Shown piece after piece: positions 24,252 to 60,471 of a stretch of DNA of 64,000 bases. The stretch lies in contig CP174359.1 in NCBI GenBank assembly GCA_045401115.1, positions 213,691 through 277,690 on the forward strand, in the 5' to 3' direction. The notes under the pieces were generated by a model. That model had not been told where the DNA came from. It ran no database searches and saw nothing but the letters and a program-made list of their open reading frames with translations. Made by a program: the position numbers and the translations under genes. The DNA comes from Candidatus Phycocordibacter aenigmaticus (GTDB lineage: Bacteria > Patescibacteriota > Minisyncoccia > Phycocordibacterales > Phycocordibacteraceae). Position 1 is the first letter of the stretch; each line of letters begins with the position of its first letter.

Positions 24252-24257
24252 AGACAT

Positions 24258-24284
24258 AAACGGCTCATCCCAATGAGCCGTTTA
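24258..24284. terminator. hairpin AAACGGCTCATCCCAATGAGCCGTTTA (member of a repeated hairpin family)
   Basis: Near-identical hairpins with a GGCTCA/TGAGCC stem also occur at about 51933 and 57064. Confidence 0.5.
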
Positions 24285-24351
24285 TGTTCCATCTTTTGTT
24301 ATGTGTGCCAAACCGGTCATTGAACTGAGGAAGTGGGGATAGGGGTTATAT

Positions 24352-32396: not shown

Positions 32397-33260
32397 ATGG
32401 CAACAAAAAGTAAAACAAAAAACAGTAAACCAACGTCACCGGGCGTACGCGGTACCCGTACCGTGCGTTATAAAAATACGTTGACTGCGTCAAAGCCACT
32501 TAAGTCGCTGGTAAAAGGTGCGCGGAAAAATGCGGGCCGCAACAGTGCTGGGAGAATCACTGTACGTCACAAAGGTGGTGGTCATAAACGTAAACTTCGT
32601 GCAATCGATTTTCTTTTCATAGATAAAATTGGTATTCCTGGACGTGTTGAAACAGTCGAGTATGATCCACATCGTAGTGGTTTTATCGCCCGCATTGTTT
32701 ATAAAGACGGTGAACGTCGCTACATTCTTGCGCCGCAATCTATTGAAGTAGGAGCTACTGTTATTACCGCTGAAGATGCTCCTGTGAAGCCGGGTAACCG
32801 CCTCCCTCTCTCAAGTATCCCCGTGGGTACCTATGTATACAATATTGAACTTAAAGAGCGTGGTGGCGCAAAACTCGCGCGTTCAGCAGGTATGTATGCA
32901 GAACTTGTTGCGCTCGATGGTGGATATGCACAGCTGAAGATGCCGTCTTCTGAAATTCGTCGTGTGCCAGCGAAGGCATGGGCTTCAGTTGGCGAAGTAT
33001 CAAACCCTGAGCACCGATTACGTAACCTTGGTAAAGCTGGTCGTTCACGTCACCTCGGCATCCGCCCTACTGTGCGTGGTAGCGCTATGAACGCCGTTGA
33101 TCACCCACACGGTGGTGGTGAAGGAAAACAAGGTCGTGGTCACAGACGACAGCGCACCAAATGGGGTAAACCGTCAGGCAAAGGTCAAAAGACACGTACA
33201 CCAAAGAAATACTCAAACATCCACATTGTGTCTCGTCGCAAAGTCGGCAAACGCCGCTAA
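32397..33260 (+). CDS. rplB: 50S ribosomal protein L2
   Basis: 287 aa with KPTSPGVRG and the C-terminal block [33 protein letters not shown]. Confidence 0.95.
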   Translation: [287 protein letters not shown]

Positions 33261-33950: not shown

Positions 33951-34631
33951 TTATAACTTCGGTAGTTCATCAAGCTCTTCTTCCAGTATCTTCGCGGTTG
34001 AGGTTTCCACAAAGTCTCGGTAGTTTGAATCCGGCTCTTGTTCGAACTGCGCGGCGATGATATCGGCCTCAAGCAGGCCGCCCCAGCGGTTTGCCTCGGT
34101 AATATCCTGCAAGGAAGACCACGGGTAGTCAAAAATCTTATCTTTCCAGGTCTTCAATTCCCGTGGATTCCGATGAATATAGGCGGAAAGGTAGAGTAAG
34201 TAGTTATTGTCCGCAATATGTTTTGCTTGGAACGCGTTTTGAAATATTCTCCCCGAAGCCTCGTATTTAGTATTAAAGTACTTTGTGTAGCCGTTTCCTA
34301 CGCGTTGCATATAGCGCGCGATACCGCCCTCAACCACTTCTTTTACTATCAAATGGTAGTGGTTTGGCATAATACAGAAACTCGTCAGCTCAACCGAGCG
34401 GTTCACAATGACATCATTAGTCTCTTCAGGAGACACAGTGAACCCGTCTGAAGTGGAAAATGACTCAGTGAGCCTAGTGATATGGCTAAAGGGGATAGGT
34501 GACTGCGCATACAGCATATAGAAAAGAAACCGTGCGTAGTCTTTGTGCTCTTTAAAAAGTGTCTGCTTAAAAGCCCCGCGATTGTAAATGTGGTAGTACT
34601 CTCCTGGCGCTATGGTGCGTTGAGCCGTCAT
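33951..34631 (-). mobile_element. IS200/IS605-family Y1 (HUH) transposase of the REP-associated (RAYT) type
   Basis: Motifs GEYYHIYNRG, HUH motif MPNHYHLIV, and C-terminal NYLLYLSAYIHRNP carrying the catalytic-Tyr region. The track start at 34685 is a TTG inside the palindrome, so the ATG at 34631 is preferred. Confidence 0.75.
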
Positions 34632-34655
34632 CCACTCCAATCTATTGTATTCTGT

Positions 34656-34689
34656 CCCTTTGGTCAACACCCGGGTGTTGACCAAAGGG
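34656..34689. repeat. REP palindrome CCCTTTGGTCAACACCCGGGTGTTGACCAAAGGG (34 nt, perfect)
   Basis: Flanks the 5' side of the RAYT gene, in inverted arrangement relative to the copy at 33847. Confidence 0.75.
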
Positions 34690-35485: not shown

Positions 35486-36166
35486 ATGACACATGTAGTA
35501 CACCCATACGCCCACCGACTTGGAATCCTCCGCGACTGGAAAAGCCGTTGGTTTACCACCGACCCTAAAAAGTATCGTGAATACGTAAAGGCTGATGCGG
35601 CTATCCGCGCACTTTTAAAAAAGCGTCTCCGTGGAAACTATGTCAGTCATGTAGAAATTGAACGTTCACAGAAAGATATTCGTATTTCAATTCACACCGC
35701 ACGTCCTGGTATGGTTATCGGTCGCGCTGGCGAGAATGCAACAAAACTTAAATCTGAAGTTCAGAACTTATTGAAGCGTCTTTCACCAAGTGAAAATCTT
35801 CAGATGCACCTCGATATTATTGAAATCCGTTCACCTGAATCAAATGCAGGTGTAGTGGCCGCTATGATTGTAGAAGGTCTTGAGAAGCGTATGCCATTCA
35901 GACGCGTACTGAAGCAAACAATCGACAAAGTTATGGCGAATCGTGATGTAAAAGGAGTTCGTTTGTCAGTGTCGGGTATGCTTGGTGCCGCATCAATGAG
36001 TCGTACCGAAGAAATGAAGAAGGGTCGTATTCCACTTCAAACATTCCGTGCAGATATTGATTATGCACATGAAGAGGCACGGCTCCCATTGGGTACTATT
36101 GGCGTAAAAGTGTGGGTATATCGTGGTGAAGTGTTTGATGATCGCACTAATAATGCCAACGCATAA
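35486..36166 (+). CDS. rpsC: 30S ribosomal protein S3
   Basis: 226 aa with a KH domain (GMVIGRAGENATKL) and the S3 C-terminal domain. Confidence 0.9.
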   Translation: MTHVVHPYAHRLGILRDWKSRWFTTDPKKYREYVKADAAIRALLKKRLRGNYVSHVEIERSQKDIRISIHTARPGMVIGRAGENATKLKSEVQNLLKRLSPSENLQMHLDIIEIRSPESNAGVVAAMIVEGLEKRMPFRRVLKQTIDKVMANRDVKGVRLSVSGMLGAASMSRTEEMKKGRIPLQTFRADIDYAHEEARLPLGTIGVKVWVYRGEVFDDRTNNANA

Positions 36167-44724: not shown

Positions 44725-47586
44725 ATGAAGCAACCTGGCGGTGAAGGTAATATCTCTCCCGAGCATCAATTGAATAAACTTCGTGAAAGCGAACGCTCCG
44801 GCGGTGACTCTGGCAGGGGTAGGCGTACCCGCTCAGGCGCAACTGATGTTGCAATAACTCCAGAAACCGAACAACTCACCACGCCACAATATGATACTCC
44901 AACACAGCATGAGGCAAGTGAAATACGTTTAAATCTCGCGCCGGACACGAATGATAAAGATATGGAACACCTCCTCAGTATCCTACAAGATTCAGGGTGG
45001 AAAGCGGTGCGTAAAGAGTTAGATCGTATCAATAACCCGCATATTGAAGACGACTTTCACCGCTTATTGGTGCAGTATAAAAAAGACGGACATGAAATAC
45101 CGGGGCTGAATAAAAATGACCCACTCAACGAAGCACTTAATTTCATGCTTTTTGAAATTGCTATTCCTGTCAGTGGTAGCGGCGCAGGAGAGAAAACACT
45201 GAAAGATATTTTTGTACAAATGGAGCAATTGTATTTAGCTATCGTTCCTTACTTCAGTGTCCCAGACCCAGTGTTTTTTAAAGGACCGCGTAAACGGACC
45301 GCGCTATTCCCTGAACATTTTACTCTTGAGCTCGCGGTCAGACAGGGGAGTGAAGATGCAACATTTTATATAGCGATTGATCGCTCAAAGCGAGAGTTTT
45401 TTGAAAAACAAGTATTTTCCATCTTTCCTAAAGCAATTATTAATGAGGTGCAGGATGATTATAATATTTTTAATCAATTCGGCGAGACTGTTGCCTCAAA
45501 AGGGCGCTACGCGCGTGGCCAAGCCACTCCGATTAATACCGGGGCAAAGTTTGATTACGATCCGATGAACGTTACACTTGCTGCGTTTTCCAAAATAGCA
45601 AAAGAAGGAGAGGGAGCCGCTATTCAATTTTCTGTTTCACCGGCGGGTGATTATCTGAAAGACCAGGTGCGTGAGTGTTACTTTGAAGCACAAAAAGGTG
45701 CGGGTCTTATCAAGGCACAGCAAAAATGGTTTTTGTTCGGTAAACATCCATGGAGTCGACGTATCTGGCCGTTGTTGTGGAAGTGGTTTTCCGGTTTTTT
45801 CAAAAGCGGAGAAGAAGAAAAGAAAGATAAAGCACCTGATTCAATCGTGACGACTGCGATGGCAGAAAAAATGAAAAGTCCGGTCATGGGAGCAAACTTG
45901 CGACTCGTTGCTTCAGCGCGTACGAAATCTCGCGCCGAGTCAATTCTTTCAGAGCTCGAGCTCTCATTTGGTCAATTTGAAAATTCAGAAGGTAACCGAT
46001 TCCGATTTACTCGTGTTGATAACAAAAAAGAGCTGCGGACGTTTTTGCGCCAATTTATTTTCAGACAATTCGAACCAGGGTTTAAGGAGGATCCAATGAT
46101 TCTTTGGTTGCTTCCGTGGTTTGGAAGAGACTATATGCTCTTTGATAAGCATACATTGTATTTGAACCTTGCCGAACTTGCGGCGGCGTACCACATCAGT
46201 ATTGGTGGCGGGTCATCGTCGCGTGAATTGAAATCATCAGGATCGGCAAAAGCCCCTGCACCGATGAACCTGTCTGACGAAGGTATTGTGTTGGGTGAAA
46301 ACACATTTGGTGGACGTACACAACAGATTCACTTTGACCCTGATGACCGCTTGCGCCATTTTTATGCCATCGGACAAACCGGTACTGGTAAAACAACATT
46401 ACTCAAGCAGATGATTACACAAGATATTGAAAACGGGGAAGGGGTTTGTTTTATTGACCCCCACGGAGTCGATGTTCAGGATATTTTAAGTCGTATACCG
46501 AAAGAACGATATGACGATGTTATTTATTTTGACCCAGCACATACAGAACGCCCTATGGGTATGAACATGTTGGAGTTTGATCCACGCTTTCCTGAACAGA
46601 AGACTTTTGTGGTGGATGAAATGTTTAAAATCTTCCAAAAACTGTACGGTAAGTCGAATCCAGAAGCATTTGGTCCGGTATTCGAAACCTATTTCCGTAA
46701 TGCGACTCTTCTGGTGCTTGAAGATCCGGAGACTGGTTCAACGCTTATGGATATTTCGCGCGTGCTTTCAGATGATGACTTCCGTCATTACAAGCTGTCA
46801 CGCTCGAACAACCCGGTAGTGAATCACTTCTGGGAGGAGGTGGCTGAACAGGTGCGTGGTGAAGGTGACTTACGCAACGTCGTGCCATACATTACCTCGA
46901 AGTTCGATATCTTCATTGCCAATGAGATTATGCGCCCGATTATCGGGCAACAACGTAGTGCCTTTACCATGAGTGACATTATGGAAAATAAAAAAATCCT
47001 TTTGGTCAATCTCTCAAAAGGACGTCTTGGTGATGTAAACGCAGACCTCATCGGGCTGGTTATTGTCGGTAAAATCTTGATGGCAGCACTGGCGCGTTCT
47101 GAAACATTGAATACAAAATATCACGCACCGTTCTATCTCTATATGGATGAGTTCCAAAATATTACTACCAACTCAATCGCTACCATTCTTTCTGAGGCGC
47201 GTAAGTATGGTCTCTCACTTACGATTGCCCATCAATATATTAAACAGCTGAGCCCTACCATTTCAGAGGCGGTATTTGGTAACGTGGGTTCAATGGCTGC
47301 GTTCCGTATTGGCTCCGAAGACGCACAATTTTTGGAAAGGCAGTACGCTCCGGAGTTCACTGCAAAAGACATGGTAAATATTGATAACTATAATGCATAT
47401 GTGCGCATGCTTGCAAAAGGAAAGCCGGTCGATCCATTTTCTTTAGAAACACTTCCATTTATTAGTGGCGAGGCAACACAAGTTGAGGCGCTCAAGCATA
47501 TGTCATATCAACGGTATGGGCGTCAACGCGCTGCTGTTGAAGAGGAAATTCGAGAGAAATACCAAGGTATGCGCGGTATAAAATAA
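44725..47586 (+). CDS. large P-loop ATPase of the FtsK-HerA superfamily (HerA/TraD/TraG-like C-terminal half, about 500 aa N-terminal region of unknown function)
   Basis: 953 aa with Walker A YAIGQTGTGKTTLL, Walker B FYLYMDEFQNI, and the downstream RK-G...Q...QL block (ARKYGLSLTIAHQYIKQL) typical of HerA/TraD/TraG coupling-type ATPases. No N-terminal TM helices. Confidence 0.6.
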   Translation: MKQPGGEGNISPEHQLNKLRESERSGGDSGRGRRTRSGATDVAITPETEQLTTPQYDTPTQHEASEIRLNLAPDTNDKDMEHLLSILQDSGWKAVRKELDRINNPHIEDDFHRLLVQYKKDGHEIPGLNKNDPLNEALNFMLFEIAIPVSGSGAGEKTLKDIFVQMEQLYLAIVPYFSVPDPVFFKGPRKRTALFPEHFTLELAVRQGSEDATFYIAIDRSKREFFEKQVFSIFPKAIINEVQDDYNIFNQFGETVASKGRYARGQATPINTGAKFDYDPMNVTLAAFSKIAKEGEGAAIQFSVSPAGDYLKDQVRECYFEAQKGAGLIKAQQKWFLFGKHPWSRRIWPLLWKWFSGFFKSGEEEKKDKAPDSIVTTAMAEKMKSPVMGANLRLVASARTKSRAESILSELELSFGQFENSEGNRFRFTRVDNKKELRTFLRQFIFRQFEPGFKEDPMILWLLPWFGRDYMLFDKHTLYLNLAELAAAYHISIGGGSSSRELKSSGSAKAPAPMNLSDEGIVLGENTFGGRTQQIHFDPDDRLRHFYAIGQTGTGKTTLLKQMITQDIENGEGVCFIDPHGVDVQDILSRIPKERYDDVIYFDPAHTERPMGMNMLEFDPRFPEQKTFVVDEMFKIFQKLYGKSNPEAFGPVFETYFRNATLLVLEDPETGSTLMDISRVLSDDDFRHYKLSRSNNPVVNHFWEEVAEQVRGEGDLRNVVPYITSKFDIFIANEIMRPIIGQQRSAFTMSDIMENKKILLVNLSKGRLGDVNADLIGLVIVGKILMAALARSETLNTKYHAPFYLYMDEFQNITTNSIATILSEARKYGLSLTIAHQYIKQLSPTISEAVFGNVGSMAAFRIGSEDAQFLERQYAPEFTAKDMVNIDNYNAYVRMLAKGKPVDPFSLETLPFISGEATQVEALKHMSYQRYGRQRAAVEEEIREKYQGMRGIK

Positions 47587-48591: not shown

Positions 48592-48975
48592 ATGAATAAT
48601 GCGCGCCAGCAATTGGTCCTCGCTGTCGTTCTTTTAGGACTCTCTATTGCGTTTCTCCAACACCTGGCGAGCATGTACTACCTGTATTGGATATTTTGGT
48701 GGTATGACATCATTATGCATCTCCTCGGTGGTGCGTTTGTGGCACTCTTATTTTTTTGGGCGCACCGCGCTTTCCCTGTGCTACCAATGAGCCGACAGCT
48801 ACTGTTCCCGGTCACACTACTGGTAGTGCTTATTATTGGGATATTGTGGGAAGTTTTTGAGTATGTCACTGGTTCATACGGAGCGGTTAATTACACACTT
48901 GATACCACGCTTGACCTTGCTATGGATATCGCTGGTATGATGAGTGCATATATCCTTTTCAAACGTTATGTCTGA
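48592..48975 (+). CDS. small polytopic membrane protein (VanZ-like pattern)
   Basis: 127 aa with 4 TM segments and D..H...G and EVFEY motifs. Confidence 0.45.
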   Translation: MNNARQQLVLAVVLLGLSIAFLQHLASMYYLYWIFWWYDIIMHLLGGAFVALLFFWAHRAFPVLPMSRQLLFPVTLLVVLIIGILWEVFEYVTGSYGAVNYTLDTTLDLAMDIAGMMSAYILFKRYV

Positions 48976-50338
48976 TCCATCTCTTTCGGTTACCTTTGTT
49001 GGCGGCGCACGGTCTGTGACCGGCGCACATTTTCTCGTTGAATCAAAAGAAAAAGGAAACACTACACGTATAGCAGTTGATTGTGGGTTGACGCAAGGGG
49101 AGCGTTTCTGTGAATCAACCAATGGCGAACCGTTTCCGTATGATGTCGCTACGCTTGATGCGGTATTTTTTACGCATGCCCATGCCGACCACATTGGCCG
49201 GTTTCCAAAATTGGTGAAAGATGGATTTCGTGGCGATGCGTACGCAACCCCACCAACTCGTGACCTCATGCCTATTATGCTTAAAGATAGTGTGTCTATT
49301 ATGGCGCGTGAAGCGAAAAGCTGTGGTGATACGCCACCATATACACAGGAGGATATGGAACAGGCAATCGGCTTATTAAAATCTCTCGAGTATACCGAAT
49401 CAGTTTCAGTTGGAAACCTTACTATCACCTTTTATAACGCCGGACATATCCTTGGATCAGCACTTATATTAGTGGAGACCAGTGAAAAACGTATCCTCTT
49501 TACCGGCGATCTTGGGCGTGAGTCGTCACTCATCGTAGCAAACCGAGAAATACCATCGGGACCTATTGATATGTTAGTGATTGATAGTGTGTATGGGAAC
49601 CGTGTTCATAACGACAGTGAGGAAAGTGAAGCAACACTGCTTGCCACTATACGTCGCGTACAGGAGAAAAAAGGTACCTTATTAATTCCATCTTTTTCTC
49701 TTGAACGAACACAAATCATCCTCGCGTTAATTGACCGGTTTGTAGAAAGCGGTAATCTTGAACCGCTACCAGTATTTCTTGATTCGCCATTGGCAATTCA
49801 AGTCACTGAACTTTATCGGAAATATACCAAATATTTGAATCCTGAAATGCAACAACGTATCGCTGCTGGTGATGACCCGTTTTCCTTCCCTTCATTTAAA
49901 ATGCTCTATAGCGCAGAAGATTCAAAAGAGGTGGACGATACGACACCCCCTAAGGTGGTCATTGCGGGCGCAGGCATGAGTCATGGTGGGCGTATCCGTA
50001 GTCACGAGACACACTACCTCCCAGGGGCGCAAAATGAGCTCCTATTGGTCGGATATCAGGTTCCTGGTAGTTTGGGCCGTCGCCTACAGGATGGGGCGCG
50101 TACAGTCACTATTAACAAAAAGAGTGTAAAAGTACGCGCCAAGGTGTCAAAGGTTGGTGGGTTCTCAGCACATGCCGACCGTGAGGGGCTCCTTTCCTTT
50201 GTAGAGGCGGTTAATCCAAAAGCGGTATCAGTAGTACTCGGTGAAATGGAATCAGCAAGTTTTTTTGCGCAAAGGGTAAATGGATTCTTGGGTATTGAGA
50301 CAAGTATTCCTCAGGTAGGAGAGTGTTTCGAAGTCTAA
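48971..50338 (+). CDS. MBL-fold beta-CASP family hydrolase (RNase J / CPSF-like nuclease)
   Basis: Metallo-beta-lactamase motif HAHADHIG plus downstream beta-CASP motifs. About 455 aa. Confidence 0.7.
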   Translation, partial: SDPSLSVTFVGGARSVTGAHFLVESKEKGNTTRIAVDCGLTQGERFCESTNGEPFPYDVATLDAVFFTHAHADHIGRFPKLVKDGFRGDAYATPPTRDLMPIMLKDSVSIMAREAKSCGDTPPYTQEDMEQAIGLLKSLEYTESVSVGNLTITFYNAGHILGSALILVETSEKRILFTGDLGRESSLIVANREIPSGPIDMLVIDSVYGNRVHNDSEESEATLLATIRRVQEKKGTLLIPSFSLERTQIILALIDRFVESGNLEPLPVFLDSPLAIQVTELYRKYTKYLNPEMQQRIAAGDDPFSFPSFKMLYSAEDSKEVDDTTPPKVVIAGAGMSHGGRIRSHETHYLPGAQNELLLVGYQVPGSLGRRLQDGARTVTINKKSVKVRAKVSKVGGFSAHADREGLLSFVEAVNPKAVSVVLGEMESASFFAQRVNGFLGIETSIPQVGECFEV

Positions 50339-51815: not shown

Positions 51816-51930
51816 AGCTATATGAGAGTAGTGTACGTATTTTTTAGCCTTTTTGCAAGGGGCACCGGCGAGAAAAAGGTTATTTTACGCTTTAAATATG
51901 CTGTCGCCTTTATACCACCTCCATAAAAAT

Positions 51931-51962
51931 AAACGGCTCACCCCGGTGAGCCGTTTAGCAAA
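51931..51962 (-). terminator. hairpin AAACGGCTCACCCCGGTGAGCCGTTTAG (repeated hairpin family) downstream of the DUF4389 gene
   Basis: Same GGCTCA/TGAGCC stem as the hairpins at 24258 and 57064. Confidence 0.5.
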
Positions 51963-53967: not shown

Positions 53968-54031
53968 ACATGTCTAAAGCTATCCCGTTTTACATTTATT
54001 GTATAGGTACTTCTCATGTATAATACCTCGC

Positions 54032-56023
54032 ATGGGAGACACTCCAAAAAAGAAAAAAGACACACCGCGCGGTTCAAAGGGCGGAAAGCAGGGGAATAAA
54101 AAAATGCCCTACCTGCCAAAGCAGTTACAAGGACTTGCTTCAAGCGCGGGTAAAACGAAAAAGAAAGCCGGTTTTCTTGGTGGTTGGCCAAGTACCGTGC
54201 TTATCGTTATTTTATTGATACTCAGCATTAACATTCTCTTTAACGATACGTCTGAAACAGAAGACATTTCACTTTCGGTACTCGCTGGTGATATTCGCCA
54301 AGAGAAAGTGGATGAAATTATTATTGCCGGTAACCGCCTTACCGCAACCTATAAAGACGGCACAGAAAAAGAGGGGCGCAAAGAAGTTGACGCCGCACTT
54401 TCAGAAACATTGGTTAACTATGGCGTCACCGCCGAAGAGCTCGCGTCAGTTGCTATTGAGGTCCAGAACGAAAGTGGGTTCCGGTACTGGTTCTTCTCAT
54501 TGGCGCCTATCATGCTACCGCTCTTGTTGATTGTGGTATTTATTTGGTATTTAACACGCCAAGTGCGTGGTTCAGGCATGCAGGCCTTTAGTTTTGGACA
54601 ATCCAAAGCACGTCTTATTGATCCGAAAGATAAATCAACCCGTATTACGTTCTCTGACGTTGCTGGTGCAAAAGAAGCAAAAGAAGAATTAACTGAAATT
54701 GTCGACTTCCTTAAGAATCCGAAGAAGTTCCTTGATATCGGTGCACGTATTCCGAAAGGCGTGATGCTGATGGGCGCGCCTGGTACGGGTAAAACATTGC
54801 TTGCCCGTGCGGTAGCCGGTGAAGCAGGGGTACCGTTTTTCTCTATCTCAGGTTCTGAGTTTGTAGAAATGTTTGTCGGTGTCGGTGCCAGCCGTGTGCG
54901 CGATCTCTTTAAAATGGCAAAAATGTCAGCACCCGCTATTATTTTTGTAGATGAAATTGATGCTGTCGGTCGCGTCCGTGGCACCGGTGTTGGTGGGGGA
55001 AATGATGAACGTGAACAAACACTGAACCAAATCCTCGTTGAAATGGACGGTTTTGAACCGTCAGAGAAAGTCATTATCATGGCAGCAACCAACCGCCCTG
55101 ATGTGCTTGATCCGGCGCTGTTGCGTCCGGGACGGTTTGATCGTCGCGTTATGATTGACCTACCTGACCGTGATGGTCGTGAAGAAATTTTGAAAATTCA
55201 TGCGCGCAAAAAGCCGCTCGCTGAAGATGTAAAAATGCGTACCATTGCTGAGCGTACACCAGGCTTCTCAGGTGCTGACCTGCAGAACTTAATGAACGAA
55301 GCGGCGATTCTCGCTGCACGCGAAGACCGCAAGAAAGTTGCACAGTTTGACTTGGTACGCTCTATTGAAAAAGTGATGCTTGGTCCGGAGCGTAAAACGC
55401 ACGTACTCGGCAAAAAAGAAAAAGAAATTACCGCATACCACGAAGCAGGACATGCCCTCGTTGCCAGCGTGCTTCCATACGCCGACCCCGTACATAAAAT
55501 TTCAGTTATCTCACGTGGACACGCGGCAGGGTACACACTCAAACTTCCGTTTGAAGATAAACGCATGCAATCAAAGAAAGAGTTCCTTGATGACATCGCG
55601 GTATCACTCGGCGGTTATGTAGCTGAGCAAATGATTTTTGATGACTTAACTACTGGCCCATCAAACGACCTTCAGGTGCTCACCGCACTTGCACGCAATA
55701 TGGTGACTAAGTACGGTATGAGTGAATCACTCGGCCCGGTAGCGCTTGAAGGCGAAGGCGGCAAAGCACTCTTTGGTCGCGGTCCATCAGAGAAAGAATA
55801 CTCTCAGGAAGTGTCAGCGCGTATTGATAGTGAAGTAACGCGTATCATTAATGAGGCACACGATAAGGCTGTACACGTTCTTAAGGAACACCGCGGGCTT
55901 CTTGATGCAATCGCGAAGCGGTTGGTTGAAGACGAAACACTTGAACGTGACGAGTTTGAAAAACTACTCGTGCTTCATGGCGTTGAACCAAAGAAAAAAC
56001 AGGACATTGAACACCAAGTGTAG
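54032..56023 (+). CDS. ftsH: ATP-dependent zinc metalloprotease FtsH
   Basis: Two TM segments, AAA module ([23 protein letters not shown], the second region of homology), HEAGHAL zinc motif and a basic N-terminal extension. Confidence 0.9.
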
Positions 56024-56119: not shown

Positions 56120-56569
56120 ATGATTCAAAAACTTGCGTGGGTGTTTGGTGCCGTATTTCTCGCGGTCGGCGTACTCGGTTTTGTGCCGGGTATCACCACT
56201 GACGGACATCTCCTCGGTATTTTTGAGGTTGATGCGGTGCACAATATCATCCATCTCCTCACTGGTCTTATCTTTGTATGGGGCGCGCTTGCCTCAGCAA
56301 GCACATCACAAATGGTGTTCAAGGTAGTCGGTGTTGTGTACGCGCTCGTTGCTATTATTGGCTTCGTACAAGGCGACACAGTGCTCGGACTTATTGCAAC
56401 AAATATGGCAGACCATGTGCTCCATGTTGTGCTTGCAGTGGCGATTCTATACATTGGCTTTGGTATGAAGAGCTCAGGCTCAGCAATGCCAGAAATGGAA
56501 ACGCCAAGCGAACCAATGGAGGCTGACATGGGTGAAAATACGCCTGGAGATCAACCACCACGCGTTTAA
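56120..56569 (+). CDS. DUF4383-like small membrane protein
   Basis: 149 aa with 4 TM segments and GFVPG...HNIIHLLTG motifs. Terminator at 56592-56626. Confidence 0.5.
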   Translation: MIQKLAWVFGAVFLAVGVLGFVPGITTDGHLLGIFEVDAVHNIIHLLTGLIFVWGALASASTSQMVFKVVGVVYALVAIIGFVQGDTVLGLIATNMADHVLHVVLAVAILYIGFGMKSSGSAMPEMETPSEPMEADMGENTPGDQPPRV

Positions 56570-56814
56570 ACACGCGACAACTCTCATTTACAAAACCCCA
56601 TCCAAAGATGGGGTTTTGTTTTTTGGTAAAGAGGGTTATATAGTAAGGGGGTTCACATGAAGGAAATGTGGGCAGTTCCACCCGTAAGCATAGCTTGCGG
56701 GTGGGGCGTGGTAAGGCAATACACTACCTTTTTTACTGCGCGTCGAAGTAATTAGTGAGCGAGCTCCCTATTACTTCTTGCTTGTAAAAACCGTGTATTG
56801 CGCTGAAGCATTAT

Positions 56815-56888
56815 CCACCCGTAGCTCAGTTGGTAGTAGCACCGAGCTTATATCTCGGCGGTCCCTGGTTCGAGTCCAGGCGGGTGGA
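56815..56888 (+). tRNA. tRNA-Ile, anticodon UAU (AUA-decoding), no encoded CCA
   Basis: Cloverleaf with acceptor CCACCCG/CGGGTGG, U8 and A9, anticodon stem CCGAG/CTCGG, loop CTTATAT, T-arm CCTGG-TTCGAGT-CCAGG and discriminator A. Confidence 0.65.
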
Positions 56889-56928
56889 CATGTAAATAAA
56901 AGCAGTGCGTTTGCACTGCTTTTTTGAA

Positions 56929-57062
56929 TGCCACCCGCCTGGACTCGAACCCGTAGGGGGTCGGGGCGGCGGAACGCCCCCGTGGAGGAGGTTACACGGA
57001 ACCGTGGGTTCCGTGAGCGCAGGCGAGAATACTAGCCAGCAGTGAGATTACAGGCGGGTGAA
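56929..57062. repeat. inverted copy of the last 22 nt of tRNA-Ile (56931-56955) plus a GC-rich 110-nt segment closed by an 11-bp inverted repeat (CACCCGCCTG/CAGGCGGGTG)
   Basis: GGGTTCGAGTCCAGGCGGGTGG on the minus strand matches the tRNA T-arm and acceptor 3' half. It does not fold as a complete tRNA. Confidence 0.5.
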
Positions 57063-57156
57063 ATAAACGGCTCAATCCATTGAGCCGTTTATTTCATCCT
57101 AAAACACTATGGTATAACGTAGTGTTTTAGGAATATAAAGGACAGTCCTTTATATT

Positions 57157-59301
57157 TTATTCAAAATGAAGCATCCGCACTGTTTCTTCAGCGCGCGTTT
57201 TGAGGTGCGGGTGTGAAGAAAGTTCAGGGTCTTCTTTCACCAATGCAAGCGCTGCTTCACGCGCTGCTTCAACCAGTTTTAAATTCTTAAGCGCTTCCAT
57301 GCCGATGTCGGAGAGCCCTGATTGTCCGCGACCATACAACTCGCCCGCGCCACGAATCTCCAAGTCTTTCTCCGCTAATTCAAATCCATTCTTTGCCGTT
57401 TTAATAGCGTTAAGTCTGGCAGAGATTGCTTTTGCATTATTGTCTACCATTAAATACGCGTACGGTTGGTGACTTGAACGCATCACCCGCCCGCGTAGCT
57501 GGTGTAGCTGCGCCAAACCAAACCGCTCCGCGCCTTCTATCATAATGACCGTGGCGTTTGGTACGTTCACGCCCACCTCAACCACACTGGTAGCAACCAG
57601 GATATCAATATCGCCCGCAGCAAATTCATTCATCACCGCTTCTTTTTCCGCCGGGTTCATTTTGCTATGCAGCTGCCCGATGCGATATTCGGGGAACACT
57701 GTTTCTTTGAGTGTTTTAAATTCACTTGCAACCGACCGCGCCTGAAGCGCCATGTGTTTCTCCGGATCCGGCTCATCAATGCGTGGGCAAATAACGTACA
57801 CCTGCCGCCCCTCTTTCAGACGCTCACGCACCGCCTCATACGTCTTGGTGCGCTGTGCCGGAGTCACAATCTCAGTGTTAATTGGCTTGCGTCCACTTGG
57901 CAACTCATCAATCACCGTAAGATCTAAGTCGCCGTAGAGGGTGAGTGCCAGTGTGCGGGGAATAGGCGTAGCGGTCATAGATAACAGGTGTGGCGCCACA
58001 TCGCTCTTGAGCGTAATTTCACGCCGCTGCAAGGTGCCAAAGCGATGTTGCTCGTCAATAATGACGTACGCCAAGTGTTTAAACTCACAGCTTTTCTGAA
58101 TCAACGAGTGCGTACCAATAACAATGGGTACTTCACCGTTTGCCACCCACTTCAGTAACTGCGCACGGGAAATTTTAGTTGCTTTACGTGGGTCAACTTT
58201 TGAGGGGAATTTGTAGCAACCGCTTGAAGTGATGAGGCCAATTTGTATTGGGTGATCAATAAAAAAGTCAGTAAACGTTTGGAAATGTTGTTTAGCGAGA
58301 ATTTCGGTAGGTACCATGTAGGCAACTTGCAAACGGCCAAAGTCCTGCGTTTCACCTTTCTCATTTTTCGGACGGCTGGTTATCACCGCGTACGCGGTGG
58401 CTGCCGCCACCGCGGTTTTCCCACTTCCCACATCACCTTCAAGCAGGCGGTGCATGGGGTACGGGTGAGAAAAGTCAGTGAGAATGTCGCGAATCGCTTT
58501 GTTCTGACTCTCCGTCGGGGTAAACGGAAAGGTGTGTATGAACTCTTTCACGCGTTCATCGTTTACCTGCACCTCCCACGCCCTTCGTTGGGTATGAGAC
58601 TCACGCTCTTGCGCACGCCCTACTTGAATGAGGAACACCTCTTCAAACGCGAAGCGTTTCCGCGCGGTGTCGGCATCTTTTTGTTTTTTCGGTTCATGCG
58701 CAAATATAAACGCCGATTTCAATTCAGGAAGATTGTACTGACGTCGTACTTGCTCGGGAATAGGGTCGGGTATGGTGTCCCAGTCGAGGTTGCGCAAAAT
58801 TCGTTGCGCAGTATGAAACAGCCACAGTGACGAAACGCCGGCTGTTTCAGGATATATAGGAAATACATCGTGCGTGTTTTCAATAACCGGCATTCCTGCT
58901 GCCACTTCCACTGTAGGGTTTGCCATGTACTTTCGCCCGCTTCCTGCAGACACCTTTCCGCGGATACGCACCAAGGTGTTCGCTGGCACCATCTTGGCAA
59001 GGTACGGCTGGTGAAACCAAGTCACTTTCAGTGTGCCGGTCCCGTCTGAAAAACTTCCTTCAGCAATAGGTGTTTTAGTGCGGAATGATTTTTTCATTTC
59101 CAGTTTAGTAAACTCACCGTAAATAATGGCGGTTTCTCCTGGAACCACTCCCGCGACCTGCTTCATCTCTGCCGCAGATTCATAGCGATGGGGGAGGTGA
59201 TACAATAAATCACCCACTGTTTGTATAGCGAGTTTTACTAGTCCGGCACGCTGACTTTTAGTAACGCGCACGTGTGTCTCAAGTGGATCATTAAAACGCA
59301 T
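57157..59301 (-). CDS. recG: ATP-dependent DNA helicase RecG
   Basis: N-terminal wedge/OB domain, helicase motifs GDVGSGKT, DEQHRFG, SATPIPRT and QLHQLRGRVMR. The start is taken at MRFNDP (59301). Confidence 0.85.
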   Translation of the reverse strand: MRFNDPLETHVRVTKSQRAGLVKLAIQTVGDLLYHLPHRYESAAEMKQVAGVVPGETAIIYGEFTKLEMKKSFRTKTPIAEGSFSDGTGTLKVTWFHQPYLAKMVPANTLVRIRGKVSAGSGRKYMANPTVEVAAGMPVIENTHDVFPIYPETAGVSSLWLFHTAQRILRNLDWDTIPDPIPEQVRRQYNLPELKSAFIFAHEPKKQKDADTARKRFAFEEVFLIQVGRAQERESHTQRRAWEVQVNDERVKEFIHTFPFTPTESQNKAIRDILTDFSHPYPMHRLLEGDVGSGKTAVAAATAYAVITSRPKNEKGETQDFGRLQVAYMVPTEILAKQHFQTFTDFFIDHPIQIGLITSSGCYKFPSKVDPRKATKISRAQLLKWVANGEVPIVIGTHSLIQKSCEFKHLAYVIIDEQHRFGTLQRREITLKSDVAPHLLSMTATPIPRTLALTLYGDLDLTVIDELPSGRKPINTEIVTPAQRTKTYEAVRERLKEGRQVYVICPRIDEPDPEKHMALQARSVASEFKTLKETVFPEYRIGQLHSKMNPAEKEAVMNEFAAGDIDILVATSVVEVGVNVPNATVIMIEGAERFGLAQLHQLRGRVMRSSHQPYAYLMVDNNAKAISARLNAIKTAKNGFELAEKDLEIRGAGELYGRGQSGLSDIGMEALKNLKLVEAAREAALALVKEDPELSSHPHLKTRAEETVRMLHFE

Positions 59302-59325
59302 AGTAACTATCTCTCCCCAGTATAT

Positions 59326-60471
59326 ATGGCAACGCGCAAGAAAAATACCGGTCAAGAATCACTCGCTCAGCATAAAAAATACGGCGGTAAACTTTCCGTG
59401 GAAAGTAAAGTGCCGCTTAAGACTAAAAACGACTGGAGCACCTACTACACACCAGGCATTGCTGCTGTTGCGTCACACCTTGCACAGCATCCCGAAGCGG
59501 CGCGTACGCATTCAATAAAGAAAAACACTGTCGCAGTCATTTCAGACGGCTCTGCCGTGCTGGGTCTCGGCAATATCGGTCCCTACGGTGCGCTCCCAGT
59601 TATGGAAGGGAAGGCAGCTATTTTTAAAACTATGGCGGATATCGACGCGTTTCCTATTGTGCTTGATACGCAGGACACTGATGCGATTATTGAAACGATA
59701 GTAAATCTTGCACCGGGGTTCGGCGGTATTAATCTCGAAGACATCAGCGCGCCGAAATGTTTTGAGGTGGAGGAGCGCCTTAAAAAACGCCTTGCCATCC
59801 CCGTCATGCATGACGACCAGCACGGCACGGCGATAGTGGTACTCGCCGCACTCACCAACGCGCTCAAAGTAGTGAAGAAGAAAAAAGACACAGCGTCAGT
59901 TGCTATCTTAGGAGCGGGGGCAGCGGGCAATGCTATCGCGCAGCTCCTTGCGTATGATGGTTATGGCGATATCGCGGTGGTTGATAGCCGCGGTGTGATT
60001 ACTAAAGCGCGTAAAGACCTGGCGCCACATAAAAAGAAGCTGGCGCGTTTGCCGCAAAAACGCAAAGGACTCGTGACGGCGCTCGACGCTGTTTCAGAAG
60101 CCGACGTGCTCATTGGTGTCTCAGGTCCGAATACGGTGTCAAAAGAAATGGTTGCCGCTATGGCTGAAGACGCAATCGTCTTTGCGCTTGCTAACCCAAT
60201 ACCGGAAATTCTACCAACCGCAGCGCACGCTGCCGGTGCGCGCGTGGTGGCAACGGGCCGCTCTGATTTTCCCAACCAGGTAAACAACGCGCTGGTCTTT
60301 CCGGGCATATTCCGTGGTGCGCTTGATAAACAGGTCTCCGCTATTACGGACGAGATGAAAGTAAAAGCAGCGCATGCCTTAGCGCGTTTAGTGGCAAAGC
60401 CAACTGCCGCAAAAATTGTGCCGGCGGTATCAGACCCACGCGTGGTGAAAGCAGTAGCCAAAGCGGTCTAG
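59326..60471 (+). CDS. NAD(P)-dependent malic enzyme (short, MaeB N-terminal-domain type)
   Basis: Malic enzyme motifs GPYGALPVMEGKAAIFK, FGGINLEDI and the Rossmann loop ILGAGAAGNAIA. Confidence 0.8.
   Translation: MATRKKNTGQESLAQHKKYGGKLSVESKVPLKTKNDWSTYYTPGIAAVASHLAQHPEAARTHSIKKNTVAVISDGSAVLGLGNIGPYGALPVMEGKAAIFKTMADIDAFPIVLDTQDTDAIIETIVNLAPGFGGINLEDISAPKCFEVEERLKKRLAIPVMHDDQHGTAIVVLAALTNALKVVKKKKDTASVAILGAGAAGNAIAQLLAYDGYGDIAVVDSRGVITKARKDLAPHKKKLARLPQKRKGLVTALDAVSEADVLIGVSGPNTVSKEMVAAMAEDAIVFALANPIPEILPTAAHAAGARVVATGRSDFPNQVNNALVFPGIFRGALDKQVSAITDEMKVKAAHALARLVAKPTAAKIVPAVSDPRVVKAVAKAV

What the first reader, a model, noticed from the sequence alone, without database searches (positions are those of the whole stretch)
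56815..57062. tRNA-Ile with a UAU anticodon followed by an inverted copy of its own 3' end enclosing a terminator and a GC-rich 110-nt element
The tRNA at 56815-56888 folds cleanly, and the anticodon loop CTTATAT gives UAU. That implies AUA decoding by a UAU tRNA rather than the usual lysidine-modified CAU tRNA, an arrangement seen only in a minority of bacteria. Immediately downstream the last 22 nt of the tRNA (GGTTCGAGTCCAGGCGGGTGG) recur inverted at 56931-56955. Together with the tRNA 3' half they form a perfect ~25-bp stem around a terminator hairpin. An 11-bp inverted repeat (CACCCGCCTG, 56932... and 57051-57060) then closes a GC-rich segment that does not fold as a tRNA. Duplicated tRNA 3' ends are classic footprints of integrase-mediated insertion, but those are direct repeats. 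An inverted copy is unusual. It might act as a strong bidirectional terminator, be a recombination scar, or be part of a tRNA-derived small RNA.
Basis: partly seen in the sequence, partly recalled or inferred. Interest (0 to 1): 0.55.

Follow-up and report, generated by a model that had tools for sequence, protein, structure and literature searches.

The report
tRNA-Ile(UAU) gene with rearrangement scar
A genuine isoleucine tRNA that reads the AUA codon directly is followed by a flipped copy of its own tail and a GC-rich leftover, most likely a lineage-specific scar at a tRNA gene that is repeatedly rearranged in these tiny bacteria.

Summary
ARAGORN and Rfam call a tRNA-Ile(UAU) at 56815-56888. 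Its last 21 nt recur inverted and exact at 56931-56951 around a bidirectional terminator hairpin (56898-56923). A 10-bp inverted repeat closes a 94-nt segment of 67% GC in a 45% GC genome.

The window is a Patescibacteria genome (UBA2163, Paceibacteria/Kaiserbacteria-like). About 21 related loci share the synteny FtsH-(DUF4383)-tRNA-Ile(UAU)-RecG, and all carry the UAU tRNA. AUA is 11% of Ile codons in ten core genes. TilS absence could not be tested.

The inverted copy and GC-rich segment are in none of the relatives whose tRNA-RecG spacer could be read, nor in Rfam, IMG/VR, phage or plasmid collections. The spacer is hypervariable. Relatives show direct arrays of tRNA 3' fragments, tRNA halves nested around a replacement tRNA, a flipped tRNA module and small cargo genes.

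Best reading (about 0.6): a non-conserved recombination scar beside a real tRNA and two real terminators. A functional RNA, a reinforced terminator or an assembly chimera are less likely.

Side finds: a conserved acceptor-stem 'minihelix' upstream of the tRNA, and a LAGLIDADG-like gene next to this tRNA in two relatives.

The parts
56590..56619 (+). Intrinsic terminator of the DUF4383 gene (56120-56569)
   Evidence: Terminator scan, 13-bp stem followed by a T-run. The same hairpin is conserved in L003, L004, L020, L023 and L024.
56639..56644 (+). -10-like box TATAGT, the likely promoter of the tRNA unit
   Evidence: A TATAGT or TATATT box lies 7-9 nt upstream of the tRNA itself in L001, L003, L027, L028 and L029. 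It lies 7-9 nt upstream of the minihelix in L023, L024 and L030. This is inferred from conservation. The consensus scanner found no full sigma-70 site.
56678..56704 (+). 12-bp 'minihelix' CCACCCGTAAGC-ATA-GCTTGCGGGTGG. Its 5' strand repeats the first 9-10 nt of the tRNA (direct repeat TCCACCCGTA at 56677 and 56814).
   Evidence: the repeat finder I7 and D5. It is present in L020 (twice), L023, L024/25 and L030. Three base pairs covary in step with the resident tRNA's acceptor stem.
56714..56805 (+). Long leader hairpin between the minihelix and the tRNA
   Evidence: Fold of 56640-56900. L020 has the same two-tier hairpin with different stem sequences and a conserved apical AGCGAGCT motif.
56815..56888 (+). 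tRNA-Ile, anticodon UAU
   Evidence: ARAGORN. Rfam tRNA, 60 bits. Orthologues found in all related loci.
56898..56923 (.). Bidirectional intrinsic terminator hairpin shared by the convergent tRNA and RecG units
   Evidence: Sequence, I9, fold. L019 has the same layout, tRNA-CATG-A-run-hairpin-T-run, without any inverted copy after it.
56931..56951 (-). Exact inverted copy of tRNA positions 52-72 (T loop, T-stem 3' strand and acceptor 3' strand)
   Evidence: I1. No chance matches in shuffles. It is the only inverted tRNA-Ile fragment at E<0.01 among all the loci compared.
56952..57045 (.). GC-rich orphan segment (67% GC), containing two stable hairpins at about 56961-56978 and 56995-57015
   Evidence: Composition. 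Folds have z = -4.9 on the minus strand and -4.4 on the plus strand. No match in the window, the fetched loci, IMG/VR, phages, plasmids or Rfam.
57046..57062 (+). Degenerate direct copy of the tRNA 3' end (GATTACAGGCGGGTGAA; core CAGGCGGGTG is exact). Read on the minus strand it equally resembles a tRNA 5' acceptor strand.
   Evidence: D1 and I4. The weak D-arm-like similarity of the adjoining minus-strand sequence has p about 0.015-0.05.
57063..57092 (.). RecG terminator hairpin AAACGGCTCA-n-TGAGCCGTTT, a member of a small repeated hairpin family
   Evidence: I2. Conserved after RecG in L001 and L002. Two further copies lie at window 24256-24285 and 51927-51957.
57097..57156 (.). Two extra hairpins between the RecG stop codon and its terminator. 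They are absent from relatives.
   Evidence: I3 and I6, compared with L001 and L002.
57157..59355 (-). RecG helicase gene, convergent with the tRNA
   Evidence: Pfam RecG_wedge, DEAD, Helicase_C and RecG_dom3_C. Homologues up to 98% identical.

Best explanation
The locus holds one working gene and two working signals. The gene is the conserved single-copy tRNA-Ile(UAU), the likely AUA decoder of this Patescibacteria genome. The signals are the two intrinsic terminators that separate it from the convergent recG gene.

The 132 bp between the terminators (56931-57062) is most likely a non-functional, lineage-specific recombination scar. It consists of an exact inverted copy of the tRNA's last 21 nt, a 94-nt GC-rich segment, and a degenerate direct copy of the tRNA 3' end.

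In this clade the tRNA-Ile(UAU) gene is a recurrent target of site-specific integration, replacement and inversion. Such events leave copies of the tRNA ends. The direct 10-bp core repeat CAGGCGGGTG (56877 and 57051) looks like an attL/attR-type remnant.

The inverted copy could have arisen in one of three ways:
(a) inversion of an att-type fragment;
(b) decay of a second, oppositely oriented tRNA-Ile copy;
(c) fold-back or template-switch copying through the palindromic terminator.
Its arms may have been kept identical to the selected tRNA by gene conversion.

Shown: the tRNA, the repeats, the terminators, the absence of the segment from relatives whose spacer could be read, and the hot-spot behaviour of the locus. 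Inferred: that the segment has no function, and which rearrangement made it.
For: - The tRNA is genuine and conserved. AUA codons are in use.
- The synteny FtsH-(DUF4383)-tRNA-Ile(UAU)-(dut or cargo)-RecG holds across the clade.
- Every relative with a fully read RecG-tRNA spacer lacks both the inverted copy and the GC-rich segment: L001, L003, L004, L019, L024/25 and L027-L031. In L003 the tRNA abuts the RecG stop codon.
- The JGI metagenome scan used the 21-mer on both strands, so it would have caught any copy of the element with an intact arm. It returned only ordinary tRNA-Ile genes, one displaced direct fragment (L011) and one probable chance hit (L017).
- The locus is demonstrably unstable in relatives.
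  - Direct arrays of tRNA 3' fragments occur in L009/L016, L011 and L012.
  - tRNA halves are nested around a complete replacement tRNA in L024/25 and L009.
  - The whole promoter-tRNA module is flipped in L004 relative to L003.
  - L027 carries HicAB, and L028-L030 carry unknown ORFs, in the spacer.
  - L022 shows strain-level polymorphism against L020.
- Published precedents exist. Integration followed by inversion leaves a full and a partial tRNA copy on opposite strands (PMC9897764). Integration with a short core can fail to rebuild the tRNA while the element brings its own copy (PMC10865867).
- For the segment there is no promoter-like site, no Rfam family and no meaningful ORF.
Against: - At 67% GC in a 45% GC genome, the segment is not what an old neutral scar should look like. 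It must be recent or foreign, or its structure is under selection.
- Both strands fold well beyond shuffled controls (z = -4.9 and -4.4).
- The arms are 21/21 identical while the adjoining spacers differ. This needs gene conversion, recency or selection.
- No integrase or element body lies nearby, in the window or in any relative.
- No donor sequence for the GC-rich part was found.
- The closest relative (RecG 98% identical) could not be read across this spot, because both of its contigs end at the flanking hairpins.
- The segment itself was not searched against GTDB genomes.
Confidence: 0.6

Rival explanations
1. The GC-rich segment with its tRNA-derived ends is a functional structured RNA. 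It would be made by read-through of the recG terminator and would end at the shared terminator. It would carry a tRNA-like helix (an 11-bp acceptor/T-stem mimic plus the T-loop sequence), or a 21-nt tRNA-identical 3' tail behind a scaffold.
For: - 67% GC against 45% for the genome, typical of structural RNAs in AT-leaning genomes.
- The minus-strand fold is -65.3 kcal/mol, z = -4.9, with a closing 11-bp helix and three or four hairpins.
- The segment is bracketed by two terminators.
- An acceptor-stem mimic also exists upstream of the tRNA, and that one is conserved.
Against: - No promoter-like site on either strand. The best candidate lacks the key A at position 2 of the -10 box (read).
- No Rfam match at E up to 10.
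- Absent from all relatives whose spacer could be read, and from the JGI contigs that contain the 21-mer.
- The T stem cannot form, because its 5' strand is missing (read).
Confidence: 0.13
2. The 21-nt arms work with the hairpin as a reinforced terminator or insulator. In any transcript that reads through the small terminator, the arms zip into a roughly 35-bp interrupted duplex. That would stop or mark such transcripts (for example for RNase III) and keep convergent recG and tRNA transcription apart.
For: - The read-through fold of 56815-56960 is -83.9 kcal/mol, z = -9.9. It replaces the T arm and acceptor stem of the tRNA cloverleaf with the long hairpin.
- The genes are convergent and only about 270 bp apart.
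Against: - The small hairpin already has T-runs on both sides and should terminate before the second arm is transcribed.
- Relatives manage without it. L019 has the same tRNA-terminator unit and no inverted copy. L003 has no spacer at all.
- A duplex that unfolds the tRNA would be costly rather than useful.
Confidence: 0.1
3. The segment is an assembly chimera. The source is a metagenome-assembled genome, and the tRNA 3' end is a 21-mer shared by many co-occurring Patescibacteria, so an assembler could have stitched in foreign GC-rich sequence there.
For: - The source is the MAG 'Patescibacteria group bacterium UBA2163'.
- The same 21-mer occurs in 13 other tRNA-Ile genes from metagenomes.
- The GC content jumps sharply.
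- An unrelated high-GC contig, L017, shares 22 nt including the extra C.
Against: - Both flanks are syntenic with relatives, so two chimeric joins would be needed. The right-hand join has only 10 shared bases.
- The foreign side of the 21-mer is not a proper tRNA, because no T stem can form.
- A hairpin-turn artefact would give perfectly mirrored spacers, and these are 10 nt against 7 nt and differ in sequence.
Confidence: 0.07
4. The 132-bp unit is a small non-autonomous mobile element (MITE- or foldback-like) whose terminal inverted repeats mimic the tRNA end.
For: - Terminal inverted repeats of 10 bp perfect, 13/15 overall (I4).
- Compact size.
- An IS200/RAYT-like Y1 transposase ORF lies elsewhere in the window, at 33951-34685.
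Against: - No target-site duplication.
- No second copy in the 64-kb window, in 256 kb of related loci or in the public collections searched.
- The 'terminal repeats' are simply copies of the neighbouring tRNA.
Confidence: 0.05

Closest known systems
tRNA-Ile2 with an unmodified UAU anticodon for AUA decoding (Mycoplasma mobile; also inferred for Bifidobacterium and Neorickettsia; PMC3575796)
   Same: A bacterial tRNA-Ile gene with a genomically encoded UAU anticodon, in a genome that uses AUA codons and belongs to a reduced-genome lineage.
   Different: Absence of tilS and of tRNA-Ile(CAU), and IleRS recognition of UAU, are untested here. This case is in Patescibacteria, where the gene is conserved at one syntenic site across many species. 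The papers searched do not describe that.
tRNA gene fragments left by integrating elements (attL/attR), including cases where a later inversion puts the full and partial copies on opposite strands (Thermococcus Arg-TCT example, PMC9897764; sublocation classes of Williams 2002, from my own knowledge)
   Same: A partial copy of the tRNA 3' end (positions 52-72, the span typical of T-loop-class identity blocks) lies next to the intact gene. One copy is direct and one is inverted. The state of the locus varies among relatives.
   Different: No integrase or element body lies between the copies. Only 43 nt and 164 nt separate them. The inverted copy is perfect while the direct copy is degenerate.
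tRNA-dependent lysogeny (Guerrero-Bustamante and Hatfull 2024, PMC10865867)
   Same: In relatives L024/25 and L009, the resident tRNA-Ile is split in its anticodon loop and not rebuilt. A complete tRNA-Ile of the same isotype sits between the halves.
   Different: The inserts are only about 150-175 bp, with no phage genes left. The window itself shows no nested halves, only short (10-bp) core-like direct repeats at both ends of the tRNA.
Bidirectional intrinsic terminators between convergent genes
   Same: A GC-rich hairpin flanked by an A-run and a T-run, shared by the convergent tRNA and recG units.
   Different: It is embedded in a much longer interrupted palindrome made from tRNA sequence.

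Membership tests
tRNA (Rfam RF00005), isotype Ile, anticodon UAU | Cloverleaf that scores above the family threshold, with anticodon UAU at positions 34-36 | tested here: met
   60 bits against a 29-bit gathering score. ARAGORN calls Ile (tat).
TilS-independent AUA decoding system (M. mobile type) | AUA codons are used as sense codons in the genome | tested here: met
   43 AUA among 398 Ile codons in ten core genes.
TilS-independent AUA decoding system (M. mobile type) | No tilS gene and no tRNA-Ile2(CAU) in the genome | not testable with these tools
   Neither is in the 64-kb window. The remaining roughly 657 kb of the genome could not be read.
TilS-independent AUA decoding system (M. mobile type) | IleRS charges the UAU tRNA, and U34 avoids misreading AUG | not testable with these tools
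   Needs biochemistry.
Integrase-type att scar at a tRNA gene | Direct repeat of a tRNA 3' segment bounding the inserted DNA | tested here: met
   CAGGCGGGTG at 56877 and 57051. The match is 14/17 over positions 57-73.
Integrase-type att scar at a tRNA gene | Integrase gene or recognisable element genes between the repeats | tested here: not met
   Only 164 bp lie between the repeats, with no ORF of note. No integrase was seen in any related locus.
Integrase-type att scar at a tRNA gene | Presence or absence polymorphism among related genomes at the same site | tested here: met
   The segment is absent from L001, L003, L004, L019, L024/25 and L027-L031. Other inserts occupy the same site in those loci.
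Intrinsic (rho-independent) terminator | GC-rich hairpin followed directly by a T-run | tested here: met
   56898-56923 has TTTTTTG downstream on the + strand and TTTTATTT downstream on the - strand. The simple scanner did not list it.
Any described RNA family (Rfam 15) for the GC-rich segment | Covariance-model match | tested here: not met
   Only hairpin-shaped noise far below the gathering scores, at E up to 10.
Inverted tRNA-Ile pseudogene (minus strand, 57062 to 56931) | Collinear similarity to the tRNA over the acceptor, D, anticodon and T arms | tested here: inconclusive
   The 3' 21 nt are identical. The 5' acceptor-like strand matches 6/7. The D-arm-like stretch has p about 0.015 against shuffles and 0.05 against genomic windows. 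There is no anticodon arm and no T-stem 5' strand.
MITE / foldback transposable element | Terminal inverted repeats plus a target-site duplication and multiple genomic copies | tested here: not met
   Terminal repeats are present, but there is no duplication and no other copy.

The most novel reading that the evidence does not exclude
In Paceibacteria, the tRNA-Ile(UAU) gene may be a homing site at which small cassettes carrying their own tRNA-Ile(UAU) repeatedly replace the resident gene. They would do so by inserting into its anticodon loop or at its ends. A widespread HTH-LAGLIDADG-like protein family found beside this tRNA in two lineages might drive the process.

On this reading, the window's hollow inverted copy, its 10-bp core repeats and the conserved acceptor-stem minihelix are relics of that process. 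Alternatively, the minihelix is a working recombination site or an acceptor-stem mimic in the pre-tRNA leader.
Probability: 0.2. Interest if true: 0.65.

Novelty: new member of a known kind. Interest (0 to 1): 0.3.

Why it matters
The tRNA result adds a whole clade of ultra-small bacteria to the short list of lineages that appear to read AUA with an unmodified-type UAU tRNA. That bears on how reduced genomes simplify decoding.

The downstream structure is probably just a scar. It does flag this essential single-copy tRNA gene as a place where Patescibacteria genomes are repeatedly cut, replaced and flipped. That is useful for locating their poorly known mobile elements, and for avoiding mis-annotation of tRNA fragments.

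Tried and rejected
- tmRNA or a tRNA with an intron on the minus strand. ARAGORN finds nothing there. No tag-like reading frame, T stem or anticodon arm can be built.
- Known RNA families. Two Rfam searches, one restricted to 561 nt with E up to 10, gave only the tRNA and hairpin noise.
- Small protein. The ORFs of 27-46 aa across the segment have no support.
- Hairpin-turn or fold-back copying straight through the terminator. The spacers are not mirror images (10 nt against 7 nt). A weak 5/7 similarity between one spacer and the reverse complement of the other keeps a diverged version of this idea alive.
- Origin from a phage, plasmid or viral contig. No BLAST match. IMG/VR exact scans returned nothing or one 18-nt chance hit, L026.
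- RecG-based scan of JGI metagenomes found nothing. The GTDB scan gave one locus only.
- Exact look-ups of the window's own RecG and DUF4383 proteins failed.
- A shared downstream motif, GAGGCGGGGTCGCG, in L001, L006 and L027 looked related to the window's segment. The alignment is weak and I do not rely on it.

Full report
**What is there**

ARAGORN finds two tRNA genes in the window. One is tRNA-Ile with anticodon tat at 56815-56889 on the + strand. Rfam's tRNA model scores it 60 bits against a gathering score of 29. The anticodon loop is CUUAUAU, the discriminator is A73 and no CCA is encoded.

The last 21 nt of the gene (positions 52-72, GGTTCGAGTCCAGGCGGGTGG, 56867-56887) recur as an exact reverse complement at 56931-56951, 43 nt downstream (I1). 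With up to three mismatches allowed, these are the only two matches in 64 kb. None occurred in 100 shuffles.

Between the arms lies a hairpin at 56898-56923. It has an 11-bp stem and a 4-nt loop, with an A-run before it and a T-run after it. It therefore reads as an intrinsic terminator on both strands.

A second inverted repeat pairs 56932-56941 with 57051-57060 (10 bp perfect, 13/15). It encloses 94 nt of 67% GC, in a window that averages 44.8%. The right arm of this repeat is also a degenerate direct copy of the tRNA 3' end, matching 14/17.

The long stem is 21 perfect pairs plus three more past a bulge, not a perfect 25.

**Context**

The flanking genes are FtsH (53999-56023), a DUF4383 protein (56120-56569) with its terminator, and a convergent RecG (57157-59355, minus strand). 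A malic enzyme gene follows.

The DUF4383 protein is 100% identical to one from 'Patescibacteria group bacterium UBA2163', on a 721-kb contig. RecG homologues are all from Parcubacteria, Kaiserbacteria or Paceibacteria. The rest of the window is core machinery: ClpP, NusA, EF-G, EF-Tu, ribosomal proteins, SecY, SmpB.

**The tRNA**

I recovered the same locus, or the same tRNA, from about 21 non-redundant relatives. These came from one GTDB genome, JGI contigs that carry the 21-mer, and contigs encoding RecG or DUF4383 homologues.

All of them have a tRNA-Ile(UAU). Where the flanks are long enough to see, the synteny is FtsH-(DUF4383)-tRNA-(dut or small cargo)-RecG. AUA makes up 43 of 398 Ile codons in ten core genes of the window.

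So this is a conserved, single-locus, presumably essential AUA decoder. Reading AUA with a UAU tRNA is a known minority solution in bacteria (PMC3575796). No tilS gene or CAU-type tRNA is in the window. That covers only 9% of the genome, so the 'instead of lysidine' part of the claim stays untested. I found no paper linking lysidine or tilS with Patescibacteria in the library searched.

**The downstream structure is not conserved**

Relatives in which the whole tRNA-RecG spacer can be read have neither the inverted copy nor the GC-rich segment. These are L001, L003, L004, L019, L024/25 and L027-L031.
- In L003 the tRNA abuts the RecG stop codon.
- L019 shares the window's tRNA-CATG-A-run-hairpin-T-run unit, followed by unrelated sequence.

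The JGI scan used the 21-mer on both strands. Any contig carrying the element with an intact arm would have been returned, and none was. The interior has no match in the following:
- the window itself;
- 256 kb of related loci;
- IMG/VR (exact 18- and 19-mers);
- INPHARED phages and PLSDB plasmids;
- Rfam.

There are two limits. First, the closest relative (RecG 98% identical) is split into two contigs that end at the two flanking hairpins, so its state is unknown. Second, GTDB genomes were not searched with the segment itself.

**The locus is a rearrangement hot spot**

- L009/L016, L011 and L012 carry tandem direct arrays of tRNA-Ile 3' fragments, each preceded by the same short arm.
- In L024/25 a tRNA-Ile with a C1-G72 acceptor pair is split in its anticodon loop. 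Between the halves lie 27 nt, a complete tRNA-Ile(UAU) with G1-C72, and 50 nt.
- L009 shows three such layers, with homologous arms at each level.
- In L004 the whole promoter-tRNA module is inverted relative to RecG and DUF4383, when compared with L003 and the window.
- L027 carries a HicAB pair in the spacer. L028-L030 carry unknown small ORFs there.
- Two sequencing runs of the closest relative differ at the tRNA 5' junction (L020 against L022).

At E<0.01, six of about 21 loci have partial tRNA-Ile copies nearby. All of these are direct, with 5' pieces upstream and 3' pieces downstream, except the window's inverted copy.

Both known mechanisms fit this pattern. Integration at tRNA genes leaves partial copies, and a later inversion can put them on opposite strands (PMC9897764). 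Integration with a short core may fail to rebuild the tRNA while the element supplies its own (PMC10865867).

**How the window's structure most likely arose**

The exact 10-bp direct repeat CAGGCGGGTG (56877 and 57051) brackets 164 bp, in the way an attL/attR pair would. I see three possible routes to the inverted 21-mer and cannot separate them.
- Inversion of an att-type fragment.
- Decay of a second tRNA-Ile copy on the minus strand. The minus-strand unit begins with an acceptor-like TCACCCG and a weakly D-arm-like stretch (p about 0.015-0.05). It ends with the perfect 21 nt. It has no anticodon arm or T-stem 5' strand.
- Fold-back or template-switch copying through the terminator palindrome. 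The spacers are not mirror images. One still matches the reverse complement of the other at 5 of 7 positions.

In each case, the perfect arms next to diverged spacers call for a recent origin or for gene conversion from the selected tRNA.

**Arguments for a function, and why I rank them lower**

The GC content and the fold z-scores (-4.9 and -4.4) are real. They are the main reason my confidence in 'scar' is about 0.6 and not higher.

Three points count against an RNA gene:
- no promoter-like site was found on either strand;
- no homologue exists in anything searched;
- the T stem cannot form.

The long duplex that a read-through transcript would form (-83.9 kcal/mol, z = -9.9) would unfold the tRNA. 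It also lies beyond a terminator that relatives use without it.

An assembly chimera is possible for a MAG, but it would need two joins. One of those joins would have only 10 shared bases, and both flanks are syntenic.

**Verdict**

- The tRNA observation is right and mildly interesting.
- The inverted copy and GC-rich element are real sequence, but private to this genome. They are best read as a recombination scar at a hot spot.
- Overall this is a new member of known kinds, with interest about 0.3.
- The more intriguing material lies beside the finding: the nested tRNA cassettes, the covarying acceptor-stem minihelix, and a LAGLIDADG-like gene family next to this tRNA in two lineages. These are listed under things noticed in passing.

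Noticed in passing
window 56678-56704 (also L020 twice, L023, L024/L025, L030): A conserved 12-bp hairpin, CCRCCCGTAAG-loop-CTTGCGKGYGG, sits 7-9 nt after a TATAGT/TATATT box. In L001, L003 and L027-L029 the tRNA itself starts at that spot.

Its 5' strand equals the first 9-10 nt of the resident tRNA in each lineage (CCACCCGTA, CCGCCCGTA or GCGCCCATA). Three pairs change on both sides across six sequences, and five of the six keep the same C-U mismatch.

Relative to the window, L020 has a 76-nt insertion flanked by the 10-nt repeat TCCACCCGTA. The insertion starts with the same half-palindrome.

It could be a recombination site or scar laid down repeatedly, or an acceptor-stem mimic in the pre-tRNA leader.
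   Followed up: partly
L024 2990-3250, L025 1660-1920, L009/L016, L005, L004 5160-5310: tRNA-Ile(UAU) genes are split in the anticodon loop, with a complete replacement tRNA-Ile(UAU) and short conserved arms lying between the two halves. L009 shows up to three nested layers.

The pattern resembles footprints of tRNA-dependent lysogeny (PMC10865867), but the inserts are only about 150-175 bp.
   Followed up: partly
L028 5213-5905 (-) and L014 920-1597 (-); family P0241-P0360: A 225-230-aa protein lies immediately upstream of tRNA-Ile(UAU) in two separate lineages (47% identity). It belongs to a Patescibacteria family of about 1,700 unnamed proteins.

- It has an N-terminal HTH.
- The AlphaFold model has pLDDT 86.6.
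- The motif AGLFLYWxEG carries an invariant Glu.

It is a possible free-standing homing endonuclease, or a WhiA-like regulator. It is not present in the window.
   Followed up: partly
window 33951-34685 (-): A 244-aa ORF with a weak match to REP-associated tyrosine (IS200/Y1-type) transposases (E = 4e-10, below the curated cut-off). It sits inside the ribosomal-protein operon, between rplB (32397-33260) and rpsC (35486-36166).
   Followed up: no
window 57063-57092, 24256-24285, 51927-51957: Three copies of one hairpin, ATAAACGGCTCA-nnCCnn-TGAGCCGTTTA. The first is the RecG terminator, which is also conserved after RecG in L001 and L002. This looks like a small family of repeated terminator or REP-like hairpins.
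   Followed up: partly
L001, L003, L027, L028, L029 (tRNA 5' flanks): In these relatives the -10-like box lies only 7-9 nt upstream of the mature tRNA 5' end. The primary transcript would therefore have almost no 5' leader. That is notable for how, or whether, RNase P is needed for this tRNA.
   Followed up: no
window 56714-56805 and L020 1990-2110: The leader between the minihelix and the tRNA forms a two-tier long hairpin. Its stems differ in sequence between the window and L020, but it keeps its shape and an apical AGCGAGCT motif. A GAGCGAG-like motif also recurs in the cassette arms of L024.
   Followed up: no
window 44725-47586 and 48944-50338: A 953-aa protein with weak TraD/VirD4-like coupling-protein matches. 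Nearby is a 464-aa beta-CASP/MBL nuclease that hits the 'type VII CRISPR-associated Cas14' and aCPSF1 models well below their cut-offs.
   Followed up: no
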